A stretch of DNA of 64,000 nucleotides from the human T2T-CHM13v2.0 reference genome, Homo sapiens: the NCBI RefSeq assembly GCF_009914755.1, contig NC_060928.1; one strand, written 5' to 3'. The notes under the pieces are model-generated. The model was not told the origin of the DNA, ran no database searches, and saw only the letters and a list, made by a program, of their open reading frames with translations. The translations under genes were made by a program, and so were the position numbers. Positions 36,310-50,369 of the stretch are shown in pieces (the stretch's first letter is position 1; each line of letters begins with the position of its first letter).

Positions 36310-36690
36310 TCGACATTGTGATGCACAACCAGGATTCCCCTTTGACAAAGGACTATTCTGCTGGTGGTGCACTCTAGCTGTCAGCTTTCTCATGGAATGC
36401 TGCCGGGAGCTGTGTCTTCCTAGGCCACATCCATTTCCACAATGGCACCCATGCAACATTGATCAATGTGGACATATGAATAAGCCTGTCCAACCAGGGA
36501 CAACACTGAAGGGCTGTTGAAGCTTCAGGGTTCCCATTAGAGAGGCTGAGGCTGCATTGCACTCAACTTCTCCCTCTGCCCATCCTGCTTACTCTCTCAC
36601 CCTTCCATAGCTGTTGAGCTTGAAGGCACTCCAGAAAAACATTTAACATAAATTTCCAACTCAGAGTCAGTCTCCCCGAGAACCTTGCCT
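36310..36690 (+). mobile_element. Old ERVL LTR (LTR16-like)
   Basis: ggattccccttt...agctgtcagc...ctcagagtcagtctccccgagaacc resembles LTR16 from memory. Confidence 0.4.
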
Positions 36691-36983
36691 GCACAAGGTG
36701 CTTGGAACCATGCAGAACAATTTTGCGCAACACATTGAGCCATTAATCTTGAAAAACAACCCAACTTATAAAGAAGGAAATTGAGGCTTAAAGTAGACCA
36801 TAGCTAAGCTGCTTCTGAGTTTACACCCAGCTCTGTCTAGCTCCAGAGCTCATGATGGGATATTATCCTGATGAGAAGGCAGATAAAAATCATTTGAGTC
36901 CAGAAGTAGGCTCCAAAATATATAGGAATTTAGTATATGATACAGTAAAATTTCAAATCAATGAGAAAAAGATGATTACTCAA

Positions 36984-37338
36984 TGTATTAGTCTGATAAA
37001 TGCTGATAAAGACATACCCGAGACTGGGTAATTTATAAAGAAAAAGAGGTTCAATAGACTCACAATTCGACGTGTTTGGGGAGGTCTCACAATCACGGCG
37101 GAAGGTGAAAGACACATCTTACATGGCATCAGGCAAAAAGAAAATGAGAGACAAGCGAAAGGGGTTTCCCCTTACAAAACCATCAGATCTCATGAGACTT
37201 ACTACTACGAGAACAGTATGGAGGAAACTGCCCTCATGATTCAATTATCTCCCACCAGGTCCCTCCCACAACACGTGGGAATTGTGGAAGCTATAATTCA
37301 AGATGAGATTTGAGTGGGGACACAGCCAAACCATATCA
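36984..37338 (-). mobile_element. THE1 (MaLR) solo LTR
   Basis: tgtattagtc...ggggacacagccaaaccatatca; perfect 5-bp TSD ctcaa on both sides. Confidence 0.93.
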
Positions 37339-37751
37339 CTCAATCAACAGAGGTCCCAACCGGCTAATCACTTAAAAACAATCCATCTGAACACCTGCCT
37401 CCCTCCTTTCATCAAAATAATTTCCAAATATATCAAAAATTAAGCCATAAAAATATTAGAAGTACTAGACGTCATTGATTGATAAATAATCTTGATATAG
37501 GGAAGGCTTTTCTAAGCAAAACTTTTCACTGGTATAAAAGCAGTTTAGGTTCTTCATTTTACAGCACCTCCCAAATAAATAGAATCTCAAGGAGAATCCT
37601 ACTTATGTTTTCTATTACATTGCCATTTCTCCACCCCTACCCAGCCCCTACCCAGCCCCACTGTAAAGTGAAAAAATACAGCTCTGATTTTCCTCAATTC
37701 TTAATTTTCCAACAAGCAGCCCATGCCTCCACACCTCTGCGGGTTCCTTTC

Positions 37752-38490
37752 TGTGGCAGATCATTGTTTTCCAGCTGGCCACTACAAAGCCTCCTGACCT
37801 ACAACATGAGGCTGACACTCCTCCCACTGAGGGGAGGGGCCTGGGTTCCTTCTCTGAGAATCTAAGCAAAAGTGACAAGGACGGAGGAGATGCTAAGTGA
37901 CTTCCAAGGTTAAGTCATAAAATGGAATACAACTTCTACCCCCATCGTGCTGTGCCCTCTGTCTTAGAAGCTGGTCATTGTGTTCTGAGGGAGCCAAGTG
38001 GCCACATGGAGGAACCAAGTGCAGGTGTTCAGTCCACAGACTTACTGAGGCCCTGGCTGATGCCAGCATCAACCAAGAGATGTGTAAGGGAGTGAAGCTT
38101 TCAGAAGATTCCAGCCCTCAGCCATTGAGTCACCCCATCTAGCCCTCAAACTGCCTCAGCTGATGCCACCATCAACCAAGAGATGTGTAAGGGAGTGAAG
38201 CTTTCAGAAGATTCCAGCCCTCAGCCATTGAGTCACCCCATCTAGCCCTCAAACTGCCTCAGCTGATGCCACCATCAACCAAGAGATGTGTAAGGGAGTG
38301 AAGCTTTCAGAAGATTCCAGCCCTCAGCCATTGAGTCACCCCATCTAGCCCTCAAACTGCCTCAGCTGATGCTGCCCAGAATAGAGACAAGCTGTTCTGC
38401 AGAGCCCTGCCCACATTGCAGATTCGTGAGCAAATTAAATAATGGTTGAGGTTTTAAGCCTTAAGTGTGGAGTGGATTGTCACCATGCTC
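37752..38490 (+). mobile_element. MLT1 (G/H-like) MaLR LTR carrying an internal triplication
   Basis: gtgacttccaaggttaagtcataaaa...gagccctgcccacattgcagattcgtgagcaaattaaata...ttttaagcc. Confidence 0.75.
38056..38372. repeat. Tandem repeat, 103-bp unit x3 plus 8-bp partial
   Basis: Units start at 38056, 38159, 38262; only difference seen is G38066 vs C38169/C38272. Confidence 0.97.
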
Positions 38491-41400
38491 CAGGCTTCCA
38501 ACTTGACAGCTCACCTACCAGAAGTTCACTTGAAGTGAAGCTGACTTGAGGAGGAGGAACAACTAAGCAACTCATGCCAAGATAGAAAAATCACATTCCC
38601 CTTCTTTCATAAGAAGCCCCATTTCTCTTCTGTCCCAAAAACTTACTCTTCCTCCCAGATCTCAGTGCTGGCCTGAACCTCTGTGTGGTGCTGCAACAGC
38701 AAGGCCACCAGTGCTGTCTGGGTCTCTGTGAAAGTATCTTTCATATTGTACCAGCAGATGGAGATAAACCAAAAGGAATGCAGGAGATCAGGTGGAAAGC
38801 TATAATGGGCCTGAAATAAACCTTCCCAGAAAGCTTGTGTCACAGCAGGAGGCCATTTAAAAATAGCTTCCTCAGAACTTCAGTCATTTTTGAGGTTTCT
38901 ATACTCTGCAGGCATAACCCAGACTTTTTCAGGATCAGCGGTCTTTCTTTTCAGCAGAACGAAGCCCTGCTGCTGCTCATTTACCTATCTGCGTCTTCTG
39001 AAGTAGCTGAATGTGGCACAGACGTTCCTGGTCACCACTATGGAATGCAGCTGCACAAACTGGACTTTGTACATTTTAACAGGAAAAAAGGAGGAGGGGA
39101 AAGATCCAGCCAGCATGGAGCATTTATTACATGCCAGCCCTTTTGGATTAATAATTTCTAATGATAATTCTCAAGACACCCCTATTAGGTATATATTTAA
39201 CCCCAGTTTATAAAAAGGAAATGAATGATCTGAAGTTATTAAATAACTCGCCCCAGATTCAAATGCCGGCCCATCTGATTCCAAAGACTATTCTTTAGTG
39301 AGGTTTGCAGTCCTTTGACAAAAACATGCTTTATTTAAAAGAGAAAGAAAAATGCATACAGTCCTGTACAAAGATGATGGAGTCGTCACGTACCCAACCA
39401 AAATGCAAAATGAACCCAAAGTATAACTAAGAGGACATATTGCTTGGAGACTTGATTTTCCCCCTAATAAAAGGCAAGGATGCCTTAAATATGAATTATT
39501 CATTGACTGGAAGTTATTGCATTTCTTTCAGCCTCCTATTTTGTGCTTTTGGGGGAAATTCTGTTTCTGACTTGTGCTTCCCCAGGGAATGGACATGGGA
39601 GGCACAGGAGTCAAAAGAGGATGAAACTAAAATTCTGTTTATTTTCTTGAAGATCACAGAACTTGGGGTTGGTTAAGATCTTAAAGATCACCTTCCTAAA
39701 CTATCCAAGTTTTTCTGAATGCCTACAAAGTGAGAGTGTCTCTTCTCCATTGGCCTCACTGTGGCTGGCTGCTTCATGTAAATACCAATCCTAGAGACTA
39801 CAAGTTCCTGTCCATTGGTTTTCCAGGTTTGTCATTTGGTTTTGGAATTGGGGGAGACACTGAGGAGAGGCTTGAAATTAAATGGATCTCCTTCAATTAC
39901 CATGGATTTCATTATGTCCACAATAGCCTTTTTCTGTTACCCTGGACAAATGAATAGTTCCACAAGTTGTTCAAGCTTCTTAAGATGAAAGGGAGGAAGG
40001 GGCTGAGATAGCATCATCTTACTTCTGTCAACTAGCTTTTCCACGTTGATACCTCTTTCCAAAGTGATTATTTCATTGAACTATCACAAGAGTCTTCAAA
40101 GAATAAAGATATGTGTTCAATCAAGATTTCTTGGGCATCTGTTGCTTGCCAGGCACTACAATGGGTGGTCATGGGGAAACTGAGACACATGAGAGGCATG
40201 ACTGCAGGATCACTTGACTCCAGTAACAACACTGCAGCAGGGTCAGGGGTGAGTAGTGTCTCTCTTCCACTTAGCCACACATGGATCCAGGCTGACAGTC
40301 ATTCTTCCTCCAACGCTTGGCTCCTAAGGTCTTGCTAGGGGCGATAGCCCCAGTCAGCCAGGAGAAAAATGTTGAGAGAAGTATGTGAGGGAGTTTTGAA
40401 TGTGTCACCTCCTCTCATGTTGTGCTGGAGAAAAACTTCAGTCCCTTGGTCACACTAAGAGCAGTGAAGATAGAAGGGTGGTCTACTTCTGTTCCCAGTA
40501 TTAAGAGAGCTGTTGATTTTGGAACAGGTCACAGCCTTTGGCACAGGTAATAATCCCTTCACTGAGGGAGGCTGAGCCATAAGGTTCTTTCTAGTTGCAA
40601 CTTGTATGCAGATATTCACTCTGAAAGTCACCTGCAATCATGGTAAATGGCCATCACTAAAGGCAAGATCATTTCGTAGGATTAAGCATGAAGATTGCAT
40701 TGTAAGCACAAAGTCACAGTTTTTCTTAAGGAAATCCTCAGAGATGATCAAGGATATGAGGGCAGGTAGGCTGGGGAAGAGGTATAGCAGCTATATCTTG
40801 TTGCCCTCGCACTGATTCACAGAGATCTCTGCTCTCCAACCTCTATGCTCCGTAGTTCCTTAAACGCTGCACAAGAAGTCCTGGGCTTGTAGACACCACA
40901 GTTAGCGTTCAAGAGGCCCTGGCCCTTTAAGATCCTACCCAAAAGAAAGGGACAAGCAAGTTTATCTTAGTTGTGTTCTGCAGAAAGCTGGAAAGACCTT
41001 GGCTCCCATTTTCTCAGATAAATTGGAAAGGAGCAGAAATTGGTTCTTGTGGAAATAATATTCTCTTCAGGCCAGAAGGATAGCAGATGAAACAAATTCT
41101 TGAAAACTTTTCTCCCAGGATTCCTTCTTGGGATCCAGGAAGCAGAGCTGGTGATGAAGATAGTGAGATGGAACCCTGAGGACTATGTTGGGGACACATC
41201 AGATCAGGGAAGGCTGTAAGTCGATGCCCAGTAGCAGACAACCAGGTTACTAGGTCTGTTCCCTGGCGAAAAGAGATCGATATTTTCTTCATTTCAAAAC
41301 TGTTTCGCAGTTCCCTTTTTCCTTTTCCTAAAGCAATAATGCACAACTTATTTTTTGGCTTTAAAAAATTGAATGAAAAACTTCATGTCGTGGGTTTTTT

Positions 41401-42816
41401 TTTTTTTTACATTTCCAGCATCCCTTTTTATCACCTTATTCAAATGCAAATGTTCAAAAGTCTTTTGAAATAATTTTTTTCTGTAATTTTGAAAAAAATT
41501 CGCAAAATAAAAAACTTTAAATGTAAATGTTTTCATTTAGAAAATATTTTCAAGTACTGACTGTCATAGCAGCCTGAGAGGTGAACAGGGAGGGGTTTGA
41601 ATTCCTGCCATTGTCCACAGGACAGAGTTGCTGATGTGCTGGAAGGCCCCTGGTCTAATGTAAAGAGCAAAGGCTGGGCCGGGACTCAGTCTTCAATCCC
41701 CATACTGTGCTCCTTGGCTTCACGCTGCAGCAGTGCGTCACGGAACACACAACTGTTTCAAAGGGGTGGGTCATGCCCAGGAAAGGGAAGAAGCTTGCCA
41801 ACAGGGGGCTCTGAAGTATTATCCAAGGGTGGCCAAACAGCAGGAAGCCAGCATTCCCTCAACAAATGAACTCAGCTCCAGCACACATGATGCTTGGCAC
41901 CGGTCCCCAAGAACAGGCCCAGGAAGAGGCCTTGAGTCCATGCTGACTTTCTTCCTCCTACCCACTCCTTCCAGCCCCACTCCTTTTGCTTTGGGGCCCT
42001 CAGAAGCTTTTTTTCTCCACCACTTGCTTCTTTCTGCCACTTCTTTGTGTCCCTTCACCTTCCCTCAACAATTCAAGCCAGGACCCCCAAAAAGCTATCC
42101 ATGGGCCACCCACATTAATGCAGAATCCTGCCTCCCAGCTGAAGCAAAGCCTGGCCTAGGGAGGCCAAAGGGATCAGAAATGACATCCCCGTAAAGACCC
42201 ATCGTAATCCCACAGACAGGTCCTGCTACAGGAGCAGGGCTGCCAAAAAGCAACATTCTTGTTCTCTTCCTTTAGGTCCTGAAGCTCCTGCCCCTCCACC
42301 ACTGCTGCCAGCGACCACAGTAGCAGGGGGAATTTTACCTCCCCAGTATATGGAGACCATATATGCTCAGGAAGTGCATATATGCTCACAGATGAGCAAA
42401 CCTCTCAGGCCTGATTGATGCAAGCAGTCCTTAGCATTCTTCTCCATCCCAGTTTTGATCTGGGAAGGTCAAAGCCACCATTTGGCCCCGCCTTCCTTTA
42501 CTGCCTAGCCAAATGCACATCTTGAATGATGAGCAACATATGCACACAGCGTGTGGGCCAAGGACGATTTTGGTCCCTCCACCAGCAGAATGTAATTCCT
42601 TTCCCCAAATCACGCCCATAGCTCACAGTTTTGGCCCTTTCCTGATTGTTTTGTTACTAAGCCTTTAAATAGCTCATCTGACTTCTCCTCTGTCAATCAT
42701 CTATTCAGGAGGCTTGGTACCAAGTTTTCATAGATCCATAGTAAGTAAATTTGAATTAAAAAGCATTTATATGCCACACTTTTGCCAAGGTAGCAACAGT
42801 GGATGGAAATGAAATA

Positions 42817-43104: not shown

Positions 43105-43490
43105 CCTTCTTTCTCCTTCCACCCTTCCTCCTCACCTCCCTCCTTCCTCTTTCTCCCTTTCTCTCTCCCTGTGTCTATCTCTTCTCTCTCCTTTCCTTTC
43201 TCTCCTTTTCTCATTGTCTTCCTTTCTCTCCCTTCTACTTTTCTCTCTCCCCTCCGCTTTCTCTTTCTCTCTTTTCTCTCTCTCTTCCTTTCTCTTTCTC
43301 TCTCACCATTTCTTTCCTTTTCTCTCTCATTCTTCTTCTCTCCCTTCCTTTTTCCTTTCTCTTTCTCTCCTAGTCTCTTTCTCTCAACTCTTCTCTTTCT
43401 CTTTCTTTTTCTCTTTCTCTTTTTCTCTTTCTCCCACCTCTTTCCCCCTTCATCCCTCCCTTCTTTTCTTTCTCTTTATTTCCTTCTTTA
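43105..43490. repeat. CT-rich low-complexity polypyrimidine tract
   Basis: ~390 bp almost entirely C/T on +. Confidence 0.92.
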
Positions 43491-43782: not shown

Positions 43783-43840
43783 ATTTTATTTTATTTTATT
43801 TTATTTTATTTTATTTTATTTTATTTTATTTTATTTTATT
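43783..43840. repeat. (ATTTT)n microsatellite, ~11 units
   Basis: Direct reading. Confidence 0.95.
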
Positions 43841-48419: not shown

Positions 48420-48870
48420 TCACCATTTACTTAGCATTTTAATTTGTTCCAGACCCTATTTGTTAAGTCCTCACACCTACCTTTGAAGGTGAGGGATCAT
48501 TAGCTCCATTTTACAGAGGTGGAAACCACAGTTCAAAAGGTTGAATTGTTGCCCAAGGACACACAGTCAGAAGCTTCAGTACCTGGATTTGAATCTAGAG
48601 ACTGCGGCTGGAAGCCTCACCCTCTCCAGGACACCGAGCTCAGGCCCAGGATGATGCTTCCATTACAGAGCGTCACTATGTGCCAATCTGGGGCCCAGCC
48701 CTTGAGCTAAATTATTTTATTTATTCTTCAAAACAAACTTACAAGGTGGGTGTTACCACTCCCATTTAGCCACAAGAAAACTGAGCACAGGAAGTTAAGT
48801 AACTTGATTAAGGTTACAGAACTAGTAAGGGCAAACTACAAAGTAAACTCTGGCTCATCAGCTTGAAAGC
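48420..48870 (-). mobile_element. Two MIR fragments
   Basis: ccattttacagaggtggaaacc...ttgcccaaggacacacag; gaaaactgagcacaggaagttaagtaacttg. Confidence 0.65.
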
Positions 48871-49048
48871 CCCTTCTCAGGGCCCCTGGCAGAACATGCA
48901 CAGGTGTCAAGAAGAGCAGTCCTCCCTGCCTCGCAGCAATGCTTTGCTAAAACAGGATTTACAATAGTCATAAGAACATGACATAATATTTACCAAGTAA
49001 GACTCTACGGAGTCCCAGCCCTAAGTCCCCTTATCCCCTTGATAAGGC

Positions 49049-49050
<2 letters not shown>

Positions 49051-49096
<46 letters not shown>
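49051..49096. repeat. (TG)23 microsatellite
   Basis: Direct reading; uninterrupted. Confidence 0.97.
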
Positions 49097-49099
<3 letters not shown>

Positions 49100-49584
49100 A
49101 TATAAAATGAGGATACTCTTAGATACTGAAGAAGACTGGATTGTCTGTAGTTACTTTTAGAGTCACTGAACATAATGCTTCTCATTTTTAAAACCAAAAC
49201 CACTAATAATATCTTAATTTTAAAGCCAAACACTCTTTGCTGGTCCATTCTATAACCAATTACATGACTGTTTCCAGAGAAAACCTTTCACATGTCTTAG
49301 TTTAGATTCTTCAAACTCTCCCAGTTTACCAAGCAGAATAATAACGAGAACTAAATGGAAATTAGGGTCCAGCACAGTATTGGGCAAAATTGAATATTTA
49401 TAGAACGGTTAAATAAGCCACAGATGAAATATCAAGTTGTCAATGTAATTTATATAACTTTTATTTTTATATAATTTCACATGTACAGAAAAATACCCAT
49501 ATACCTTTACCCAAATAGCTACCACCAAGAAATCTCTGTTGTAACATTTCAATCGCCATTCCCTCTGAAATAATAACAAAGCAC

Positions 49585-49590
49585 TTTATT
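49585..49590 (-). terminator. MANBA proximal candidate polyA signal (AATAAA on -)
   Basis: tttatt on + ~410 nt past the stop; other candidates at 49460-49465 and 48716-48725. Confidence 0.55.
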
Positions 49591-50000
49591 TGAGTATTCC
49601 GTATTCCCCAAAGCTAGCTGTGAAAGACCTACATCACCTCAAAACCTTCCATTTGGTTCCATAGATCCTGCCATGTCACATTCTTGTAACCAGCTGCAGG
49701 GCCATCTTGTTATAACTGGTTCATGTCCTGCTAAAGCTGAGAGGTGAAGGGCTAAAAACACAGTCCTGGCACAGATTCCAGGACACCCCGGCACAGGCTT
49801 GTTTGAGGACATTGCCTGGGTAAACAGCCTCCCCTGAAAGTGTTCAGTGTACAACTCTTCACAGAGCAATCGCTCAAATGCGTGGCAGCACGCAGACATG
49901 TCTCTCGGCTTCTCTCCTTGTCTCTGTTGCCTTCCTCTCCAGTCGGTGCTTTAGAAATGCTTTATTCCCATTGTCCACTGAAAATACAACCTAGATTCCT

Positions 50001-50369
<369 letters not shown>

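What the first reader, a model, noticed from the sequence alone, without database searches (positions are those of the whole stretch)
38056..38372. Recent 3x103-bp tandem array in an ancient MLT1 LTR multiplies an AP-1 site between NFKB1 and MANBA
Seen: three units (38056, 38159, 38262) identical except one base, bounded by the microhomology gctgatgc (38056 and 38365). Each unit has a perfect AP-1 site TGAGTCA (38126-38132, 38229-38235, 38332-38338) and a HindIII site. Established: MLT1 LTRs are ancient and heavily diverged, so near-identical units imply very recent duplication. The NFKB1/MANBA interval is an immune-disease association and eQTL region. Inference: a copy-number-variable AP-1 dosage enhancer ~2.8 kb past the NFKB1 polyA site, poorly captured by SNP arrays and short reads, could tune either gene.
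Basis: partly seen in the sequence, partly recalled or inferred. Interest (0 to 1): 0.72.

Follow-up and report, generated by a model that had tools for sequence, protein, structure and literature searches.

The report
Tripled 103-base segment in old LTR
A very old, solitary retrotransposon end-piece lying between the human NFKB1 and MANBA genes has had a 103-base inner segment copied into three nearly identical tandem units, each carrying an AP-1-type binding motif, but nothing seen here shows that the copy number varies among people or affects either gene.

Summary
TRF finds one array at 38056-38372: period 103, 3.1 copies, 99% matches, no indels. The units differ at one base, G in unit 1 and C in units 2 and 3. 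Each has TGAGTCA and AAGCTT, and GCTGATGC bounds the array.

The host is a dispersed, old, LTR-sized repeat of about 37754-38508. Both flanks are single-copy, so it is a solo LTR. Its copies are 66-83% identical to it.

The name MLT1 (ERVL-MaLR) rests on indirect links to copies named in print, plus my recollection. Direct comparison was not significant, and no subfamily could be assigned.

In 8 of 8 copies where both boundaries map, the segment is single, so the triplication is private to this locus. The G of unit 1 is ancestral (11 of 12 copies), so at least two duplication steps occurred. The AP-1 heptamer is inherited from the family, not newly made.

"Recent" holds only relative to the LTR. 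One difference in 103 bases allows 0 to about 50 Myr.

Copy-number variation, AP-1 binding and any effect on NFKB1 or MANBA are untested. RefSeq lists no functional element there. The closest known case is the AP-1 VNTR of LTR10.

The parts
37754..38508 (+). Solo LTR of an old dispersed family (MLT1-type ERVL-MaLR by indirect evidence). Bounds are approximate. It is 755 bases as it stands, about 549 without the two extra units.
   Evidence: BLAST homology to 20 fetched copies spans about 37800-38483. MAFFT rows show similarity among copies starting near 37754 and ending near 38508 (A1, A3, A4). The flanks 38484-39484 and 37345-37830 are single-copy in the genome. The strand comes from co-orientation with L001 and L032, L032 being the SAMMSON MLT1D region that is printed as '+'.
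38056..38372 (.). Tandem array of 3.1 units of 103 bases
   Evidence: TRF: 99% matches, no indels, score 627.
38056..38158 (.). Unit 1, which keeps the ancestral G at 38066
   Evidence: G at the homologous place in 11 of 12 family copies that cover it.
38159..38261 (.). Unit 2, with the derived C at 38169
38262..38364 (.). Unit 3, identical to unit 2 (derived C at 38272)
38365..38372 (.). Right-hand copy of the 8-base direct repeat GCTGATGC. The left copy is 38056-38063. This is the microhomology bounding the duplicated segment.
   Evidence: The right octamer is exact in 5 of 17 family copies covering it. The left one is exact in 0 of 13 and has one mismatch in 2 of 13.
38126..38132 (+). AP-1-type heptamer TGAGTCA, unit 1
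38229..38235 (+). AP-1-type heptamer TGAGTCA, unit 2
38332..38338 (+). AP-1-type heptamer TGAGTCA, unit 3

Best explanation
A solitary LTR of an old, eutherian-age retrotransposon family, most likely MLT1-type ERVL-MaLR with the subfamily unassigned, was inserted here at least about 70 Myr ago. Much later a 103-base inner segment, which lay between two copies of the octamer GCTGATGC, was duplicated in tandem at this locus only. The array then grew to three units. The likely order is: first duplication; a G-to-C change three bases past the junction, made either during that event or afterwards; then one unequal exchange, which yields the observed order G-C-C. Each unit carries an AP-1-type heptamer that the LTR family already had, so there are now three sites spaced 103 bases apart. 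The structure, its privacy to this locus, the order of events and the old age of the LTR are shown. The mechanism (microhomology-mediated duplication followed by unequal exchange) is inferred. My working view is that the array is a neutral structural change with at most latent AP-1-responsive potential. No evidence seen here shows regulatory activity or copy-number variation.
For: Array and its single difference.
Dispersed family: 37 other places at 70-85% identity (a lower bound).
One unit in relatives: all three window units hit a single stretch in relatives. The spacing between the two boundary positions is 73-107 bases in 8 of 8 copies where both map on one strand; 12 of the 20 did not map at both.
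Ancestral G: 11 of 12 covering copies.
Heptamer: perfect in 2 of 12 and one mismatch in 4 of 12 covering copies.
LTR age: median pairwise K2P is 0.39 (13 of 20 copies with at least 100 columns) and 0.31 (16 of 20). That gives about 70-190 Myr depending on the rate.
Solo status.
Non-coding: no Rfam hit and no ORF of 60 aa or more over the array.
No other 99% copy of the unit in the genome.
Family name: family copies hit the print-named MLT1D region (L032, E about 1e-5, 4 copies), the MLT1H2 region (L033, 3e-8 and 2e-6) and the MLT1A region (L030, 9e-8). In the shared 3' block they are 63-71% identical to those regions, while the two named regions are 59% identical to each other.
Print: most MLT1 members are eutherian-wide and absent from opossum (PMC10735291 passages).
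Function: no RefSeq functional element at the site.
Against: Direct window-versus-named-copy comparisons were not significant. blastn and nhmmer gave no hit. Smith-Waterman z-scores were 0.2, -0.2, 0.3 and 0.5 for the MLT1D, MLT1C, MLT1A and THE1A regions, and 3.9 for the MLT1H2 region, where 2 of 200 shuffles reached the score. In the 3' block the window is only 53-58% identical to the named regions.
Placing the printed hg38 intervals on this assembly used gene-start offsets and, for ERBB4 and HULC, hg38 gene coordinates that I recalled. The named elements may therefore be misplaced by tens to hundreds of bases.
No target-site duplication was recognised.
Neutrality is not shown. [quoted passage not shown] It also says the causal variant of the rs7665090 block is unknown. 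The array lies in that intergenic region, so a regulatory role is not excluded.
No population or ape data could be consulted.
Confidence: 0.7

Rival explanations
1. One reading: the array is a copy-number-variable enhancer in which the number of AP-1 sites tunes NFKB1 or MANBA, and it may underlie part of the local disease and eQTL signals.
For: There are three perfect TGAGTCA sites 103 bases apart, and the motif reads TGAGTCACC. Those nine bases are also in the AP1 motif printed for LTR10A in PMC466953. That paper reports that AP1-motif copy number in an LTR-internal VNTR correlates with FOSL1 and H3K27ac signal, and that such VNTRs are polymorphic. The array lies in the intergenic part of the rs7665090 block, where open chromatin is reported and the causal variant is unknown (PMC6297228). 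Near-identical tandem units can undergo unequal exchange, and the G-C-C order suggests one already happened.
Against: No data here show variation, binding or activity. RefSeq lists no enhancer or other functional element between 19763 and 55567. The heptamer is no more frequent in the window than chance (12 found, 12.5 expected). For primary biliary cholangitis, the functional variants put forward are intronic SNPs far from the array (PMC6396435). No paper in the searched library links MANBA or NFKB1 to a VNTR. Three units give little homology for frequent unequal exchange (my own knowledge).
Confidence: 0.1
2. The duplication is old, tens of Myr, and its units stay alike through gene conversion or repeated unequal exchange. 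Unit identity would then say little about its age.
For: The Poisson intervals already allow up to 27-54 Myr for units 1 versus 2 and 18-36 Myr for units 2 versus 3. The units have no CpG, so they change slowly. The shared derived C of units 2 and 3 could be a conversion tract.
Against: With only three units and one variable site, the data cannot tell conversion from simple youth. A young two-step history explains everything without an extra process.
Confidence: 0.15
3. The array is an assembly artefact of the reference.
For: None from the calls.
Against: The array is 317 bases, far shorter than the long reads behind this assembly (my own knowledge). The units are not all identical. The odd unit carries the family's ancestral base at an orderly position, which is what real history would leave rather than a collapse or expansion error.
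Confidence: 0.02
4. The host repeat is not an MLT1/MaLR LTR but another old interspersed family.
For: No direct significant match to five print-named MaLR regions. The RefSeq soft mask does not cover 37345-41455. No target-site duplication or paired LTR was seen.
Against: Indirect links lead to three named MLT1 regions. The 3' terminal block is shared with them. Size, solo state and age fit. The RefSeq mask is sparse throughout the window, so its silence means little. I also recall MLT1 3' ends as looking like this.
Confidence: 0.1

Closest known systems
Internal AP1-motif VNTR of LTR10A/LTR10F (ERV1) enhancers (PMC466953, passages seen)
   Same: In both, a tandem repeat inside an LTR multiplies an AP-1 motif. 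The motif core plus two bases (TGAGTCACC) is shared with the motif printed for LTR10A. The idea that motif number scales regulatory strength, and that such repeats vary among people, is already published for LTR10.
   Different: The LTR10 unit is 28-30 bases, belongs to the subfamily as a whole, and reaches up to 33 motifs. LTR10 is primate-specific and has documented FOSL1/JUND binding, H3K27ac, CRISPR-validated enhancers and gnomAD indel periodicity. Here the unit is 103 bases and there are three copies. The array is private to one copy of a much older, unrelated LTR family (8 of 8 relatives have one unit). None of the functional or population evidence exists.
MLT1 LTRs of the ERVL-MaLR group (PMC5134097 table; PMC10735291; PMC5753468)
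   Same: It is a dispersed, LTR-sized, mostly solitary element with eutherian-age divergence. Its 3' terminal block is shared with the print-named MLT1D and MLT1H2 regions.
   Different: Membership is shown only indirectly, and the subfamily is not assigned. Ordinary MLT1 copies, judged by the relatives examined, have the 103-base segment once.
THE1B (MaLR) LTR used as the CSF1R promoter in Hodgkin lymphoma, with NF-kB, AP-1 and Sp1 sites (as described in PMC11007075, passage seen)
   Same: It is a MaLR-group LTR whose AP-1 site contributes to regulatory activity.
   Different: THE1B is a young primate subfamily that acts as a promoter, with experimental support and no tandem array. Here nothing shows promoter or enhancer use.
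Ordinary human minisatellites (VNTRs) associated with expression of nearby genes
   Same: Head-to-tail units of tens to hundreds of bases in non-coding DNA near genes.
   Different: Variation in copy number, the defining property of a VNTR, was not testable here. Three units is at the low end.

Membership tests
MLT1 / ERVL-MaLR LTR | Interspersed in many diverged copies | tested here: met
   37 other places at 70-85% identity. This is a lower bound, because the tool scores only the best candidates.
MLT1 / ERVL-MaLR LTR | Sequence similarity to named MLT1 members | tested here: inconclusive
   Direct comparison: no significant hit to the L030 (MLT1A), L032 (MLT1D), L033 (MLT1H2) or L034 (MLT1C) regions (best z 3.9). 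Indirect: family copies hit L032, L033 and L030 at E from 1e-5 to 3e-8, with 63-71% identity in the shared 3' block. No Dfam or RepeatMasker library is on hand.
MLT1 / ERVL-MaLR LTR | LTR size and TG...CA ends | tested here: inconclusive
   Homology runs from about 37754 to about 38508, roughly 549 bases without the extra units. TG and CA occur at those approximate ends, but the ends are placed by eye to within a few bases.
MLT1 / ERVL-MaLR LTR | Short target-site duplication flanking the element | tested here: not met
   The five bases on either side of the approximate ends do not match (read). This is expected for an element this old with uncertain ends, so the weight is low.
MLT1 / ERVL-MaLR LTR | Eutherian-age divergence (print: most MLT1 are eutherian-wide and absent from opossum) | tested here: met
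   Median pairwise K2P of 0.31-0.39 to relatives, about 70-190 Myr.
MLT1 / ERVL-MaLR LTR | Occurs as paired LTRs around an internal region in some copies | not tested
   Only 1.1-kb loci were fetched. This locus itself is solo.
VNTR / minisatellite | Head-to-tail units of 10 to a few hundred bases | tested here: met
   Period 103, 3.1 copies.
VNTR / minisatellite | Copy number varies among individuals | not testable with these tools
   One haploid reference only. Reads, other assemblies and paper supplements are closed.
LTR-borne AP-1 VNTR enhancer (LTR10 type) | The repeat unit carries an AP-1 motif | tested here: met
   TGAGTCA once per unit.
LTR-borne AP-1 VNTR enhancer (LTR10 type) | The tandem repeat is a feature of the LTR subfamily | tested here: not met
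   One unit in 8 of 8 relatives where both boundaries map.
LTR-borne AP-1 VNTR enhancer (LTR10 type) | AP-1 factor binding and active-enhancer chromatin | not testable with these tools
   No epigenomic data are on hand. There is no RefSeq functional element at the site.

The most novel reading that the evidence does not exclude
The array is a human-polymorphic minisatellite inside the rs7665090-tagged NFKB1-MANBA haplotype block, whose causal variant is stated to be unknown (PMC6297228). Its number of AP-1 sites would alter an inducible enhancer acting on NFKB1 or MANBA. It would then be a hidden structural contributor to the multiple sclerosis, primary biliary cholangitis or kidney-function signals that SNP arrays and short reads miss.
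Probability: 0.03. Interest if true: 0.7.

Novelty: new member of a known kind. Interest (0 to 1): 0.3.

Why it matters
If the unit count varies among people and tracks the local risk haplotypes, this would be a concrete, countable candidate variant. It would sit in a disease-associated interval (multiple sclerosis, primary biliary cholangitis) where one paper states that the causal variant is unknown. It would also extend the published LTR10 principle, that tandem repeats inside LTRs set AP-1 motif dose, to a far older LTR family. As it stands, it is a clean example of a late, locus-private, microhomology-bounded tandem duplication inside an ancient LTR, with an event order that can be inferred. 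It has no demonstrated function.

Tried and rejected
1. RefSeq soft mask as a test of repeat status. The mask does not cover the site, but it is sparse across the whole window, so I gave it no weight.

2. Direct naming against print-named copies. I fetched regions for HULC (MLT1A), AFAP1-AS1 (THE1A), SAMMSON (MLT1D) and ERBB4 (MLT1H2, MLT1C). blastn and nhmmer with the window pieces found nothing. Shuffle-controlled local alignment was null for 4 of 5 regions and weak for one. Only indirect links remained.

3. Print search for a 14-base stretch of the conserved 3' block found 0 papers.

4. Smit's 1993 MaLR paper, by a PMC id I recalled, is not held.

5. Searches for a VNTR or structural variant at NFKB1/MANBA. 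One search found 0 papers. One search found 4 and one search found 11 (9 listed). Judged from the listings only, none concerns this array.

6. The lncRNA name LOC105377347 gave 2 papers, both uninformative by listing.

7. Rfam gave no match over 36500-40000, and there is no ORF of 60 aa or more over the array. An RNA-gene or coding reading is rejected.

8. A segmental-duplication or satellite reading is rejected, because there is no other 99% copy of the unit.

9. No target-site duplication was recognised.

10. I could not see other human assemblies, ape genomes, reads, epigenomic tracks or paper supplements. I did not ask for the supplements, which are closed; the VNTR and SV catalogues kept there may list this array.

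Mutation rates, the read lengths of the assembly and the hg38 gene coordinates of ERBB4 and HULC are from my own knowledge, not from a call.

Full report
**1. The observation**

The sequence at 38056-38372 is as described. TRF reports a single array of period 103, with 3.1 copies, 99% matches, no indels and score 627.

A script cut the three units at 38056-38158, 38159-38261 and 38262-38364. It found:
- One difference: unit position 11 is G at 38066 and C at 38169 and 38272. Units 2 and 3 are identical.
- One TGAGTCA per unit (38126, 38229, 38332) and one AAGCTT per unit (38095, 38198, 38301).
- No CpG in any unit.
- The octamer GCTGATGC opens unit 1 and recurs at 38365-38372, directly after unit 3.

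This is the strongest tandem repeat in the 64-kb window (score 627; next best 193). The unit has no other near-identical copy in the genome. Only the array itself matches at 99-100%, and the next matches are 70-78%. TGAGTCA occurs 12 times in the window against 12.5 expected, so the three sites are one site copied. The array starts 2810 bases after the annotated NFKB1 end (35246) and 10.3 kb before the MANBA 3' end (48714).

**2. What hosts the array**

A search of the window's own genome with 37700-38700 found 37 other places at 70-85% identity. These covered query positions 258-783, which is window 37957-38482 (the tool gives a lower bound).

I fetched 20 of them. Sensitive blastn showed homology from about 37800 to about 38483. 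MAFFT rows of the two ends show similarity among copies starting near 37754 and ending near 38508 (A1, A3, A4).

The flanks are single-copy. For 38484-39484 only the self match was found. For 37345-37830 there was the self match plus one weak hit. Further left, at about 36981-37341, lies a very abundant Alu-like repeat.

The host is therefore a solitary, LTR-sized element: 755 bases as it stands and about 549 without the two extra units. There is no Rfam match over 36500-40000 and no ORF of 60 aa or more over the array.

**3. Family name**

No repeat library is on hand, so I tried print-named copies. Two papers give hg38 intervals (PMC5134097 passages; PMC11007075 passages):
- MLT1A at HULC
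- THE1A at AFAP1-AS1
- MLT1D at SAMMSON
- MLT1C and MLT1H2 in ERBB4

I fetched the corresponding stretches of this assembly by offset from the annotated gene ends. For ERBB4 and HULC the offsets used hg38 gene coordinates that I recalled.

Direct comparison with the window failed. blastn and nhmmer found nothing. Shuffle-controlled local alignment gave z-scores of 0.2, -0.2, 0.3 and 0.5 for the MLT1D, MLT1C, MLT1A and THE1A regions. It gave 3.9 for the MLT1H2 region, where 2 of 200 shuffles reached the score.

Indirect links do exist:
- Copies L001, L003, L006 and L018, which match the window at E from 1e-16 to 1e-26, hit the MLT1D region at E from 1e-5 to 2e-3.
- L008 and L013 hit the MLT1H2 region at 3e-8 and 2e-6.
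- L011 hit the MLT1A region at 9e-8.

In the shared 3' terminal block, family copies are 63-71% identical to the two named regions. Those two regions are 59% identical to each other. The window itself is 53-58% identical to them.

The printed '+' strand of the SAMMSON MLT1D, together with co-orientation through L001, puts the window LTR on the + strand.

I also recall MLT1 3' ends as looking like this; that is memory, not a test. My reading is MLT1-type ERVL-MaLR with the subfamily unassigned. Inner genes are not needed and none was touched.

**4. Age of the LTR**

I compared the pieces on either side of the array separately:

| Piece | Copies used (at least 100 aligned columns) | Median identity | Median K2P | K2P range |
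|---|---|---|---|---|
| 37800-38158 | 13 of 20 (7 dropped) | 70% | 0.39 | 0.33-0.46 |
| 38262-38510 | 16 of 20 (4 dropped) | 75% | 0.31 | 0.23-0.40 |

Taking half the pairwise distance per lineage gives about 70-90 Myr at 2.2e-9 substitutions per site per year. At 1e-9 it gives 150-190 Myr (the rates are my own knowledge). Local alignment of the best hits biases these ages downward. This fits the printed statement that most MLT1 members are eutherian-wide and absent from opossum (PMC10735291 passages).

**5. The triplication is private and stepwise**

In one search all three window units align to one and the same stretch of each relative. In one search both boundary positions mapped on one strand in 8 of the 20 copies. 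In all 8 the spacing was 73-107 bases, which is one unit.

At unit position 11, 11 of 12 covering copies have G and 1 has C. Unit 1 therefore keeps the ancestral base, and units 2 and 3 share a derived C.

The right-hand octamer is exact in 5 of 17 covering copies. The left-hand one is exact in 0 of 13 and one mismatch away in 2 of 13. The family thus carried two similar octamers about 100 bases apart, and in this copy they are identical.

From this I infer the following history:
- A microhomology-bounded tandem duplication produced two units.
- A G-to-C change arose three bases past the junction, either during the event or later.
- One unequal exchange on the G-C dimer followed. It yields G-C-C unless the crossover falls in the first 11 of the 103 positions.

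**6. Age of the duplication**

One difference in 103 bases gives 9.7 Myr at 0.5e-9 per site per year (95% interval 0.25-54 Myr). At 1e-9 it gives 4.9 Myr (0.12-27 Myr). Zero differences between units 2 and 3 allow up to 36 or 18 Myr at the same two rates.

The duplication is much younger than the LTR. 'Very recent' is not shown, and homogenisation by conversion would make the array older still. Only ape and human haplotype comparisons can settle this, and they were not available.

**7. The AP-1 site**

At the homologous place the heptamer is perfect in 2 of 12 covering copies and one mismatch away in 4 of 12. This is far above chance for a given 7-mer, so the site is inherited from the family. 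The duplication multiplied it but did not create it. The motif reads TGAGTCACC, and those nine bases are also in the AP1 motif printed for LTR10A (PMC466953).

**8. Function**

Nothing seen here shows activity. RefSeq lists no enhancer, silencer or other functional element between 19763 and 55567. The array lies in intron 1 of the predicted lncRNA LOC105377347 (minus strand), 613-990 bases downstream of its annotated start at 39046 (annotation).

The literature gives context:
[quoted passage not shown] Its causal variant is unknown.
- PMC6396435 (passages) puts forward intronic SNPs, rs17032850 and rs227361, for primary biliary cholangitis. It admits that other functional variants presumably exist.
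- No paper in the searched library ties a VNTR to this interval.

**9. Comparison with what is known**

The idea is not new. LTR10A/F carry an internal 28-30-base VNTR with an AP1 motif. It is polymorphic in gnomAD and long-read data, and motif number correlates with FOSL1 and H3K27ac signal (PMC466953 passages). The present case differs in four ways: the family is much older and unrelated, the unit is 103 bases, the array is private to one copy, and there is no functional or population evidence.

It is best filed as a new, unstudied member of a known kind.

**10. Verdict**

- The structural history is well supported.
- The family name is probable but only indirectly tested.
- The recency claim is softened.
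- The enhancer and copy-number claims remain open.

Interest is modest (0.3). The boldest reading still allowed is that the array is a hidden causal VNTR in the NFKB1-MANBA risk block; I put that at about 3%.

Noticed in passing
window 49051-49097: A perfect (TG)23.5 microsatellite lies inside the last MANBA exon (48714-50225), in its 3' UTR part (coding starts at 50001). This kind of repeat is often length-polymorphic.
   Followed up: no
window 43143-43433 and 43783-43840: A CT-rich low-complexity block (several overlapping TRF rows) and a perfect (ATTTT)11.6 lie in the NFKB1-MANBA intergenic region.
   Followed up: no
window about 36981-37341: A very abundant repeat of about 340 bases (9484 first-look candidates, 84-89% identity), Alu-like, lies about 400 bases left of the LTR. 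It overlaps the RefSeq masked stretch 37075-37344.
   Followed up: partly
window 38985-39046 (minus strand): The first exon of the predicted lncRNA LOC105377347, which is antisense to the NFKB1 3' part, starts about 0.5 kb right of the LTR. The array is in its first intron. The two papers that hold the name were uninformative by listing.
   Followed up: partly
L001, L010, L011 versus window, L005, L007, L012, L015 (alignment A4): In the 5' roughly 100 bases of the LTR the fetched copies fall into two groups that do not align with each other, while they share the middle and 3' parts. Several copies (L003, L004, L006, L008, L017, L018) match the window only from about 38344 on. This suggests several subfamilies with a common 3' block.
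   Followed up: partly
L033 585-775: This stretch of the ERBB4 intron locus matches the flanks of many unrelated fetched loci at 68-89% identity. It is presumably a common interspersed repeat unrelated to the LTR, and I ignored it for naming.
   Followed up: no
window 37634-37659: A short perfect 11-base repeat (CCCCTACCCAG, 2.4 copies) lies about 100 bases left of the LTR.
   Followed up: no
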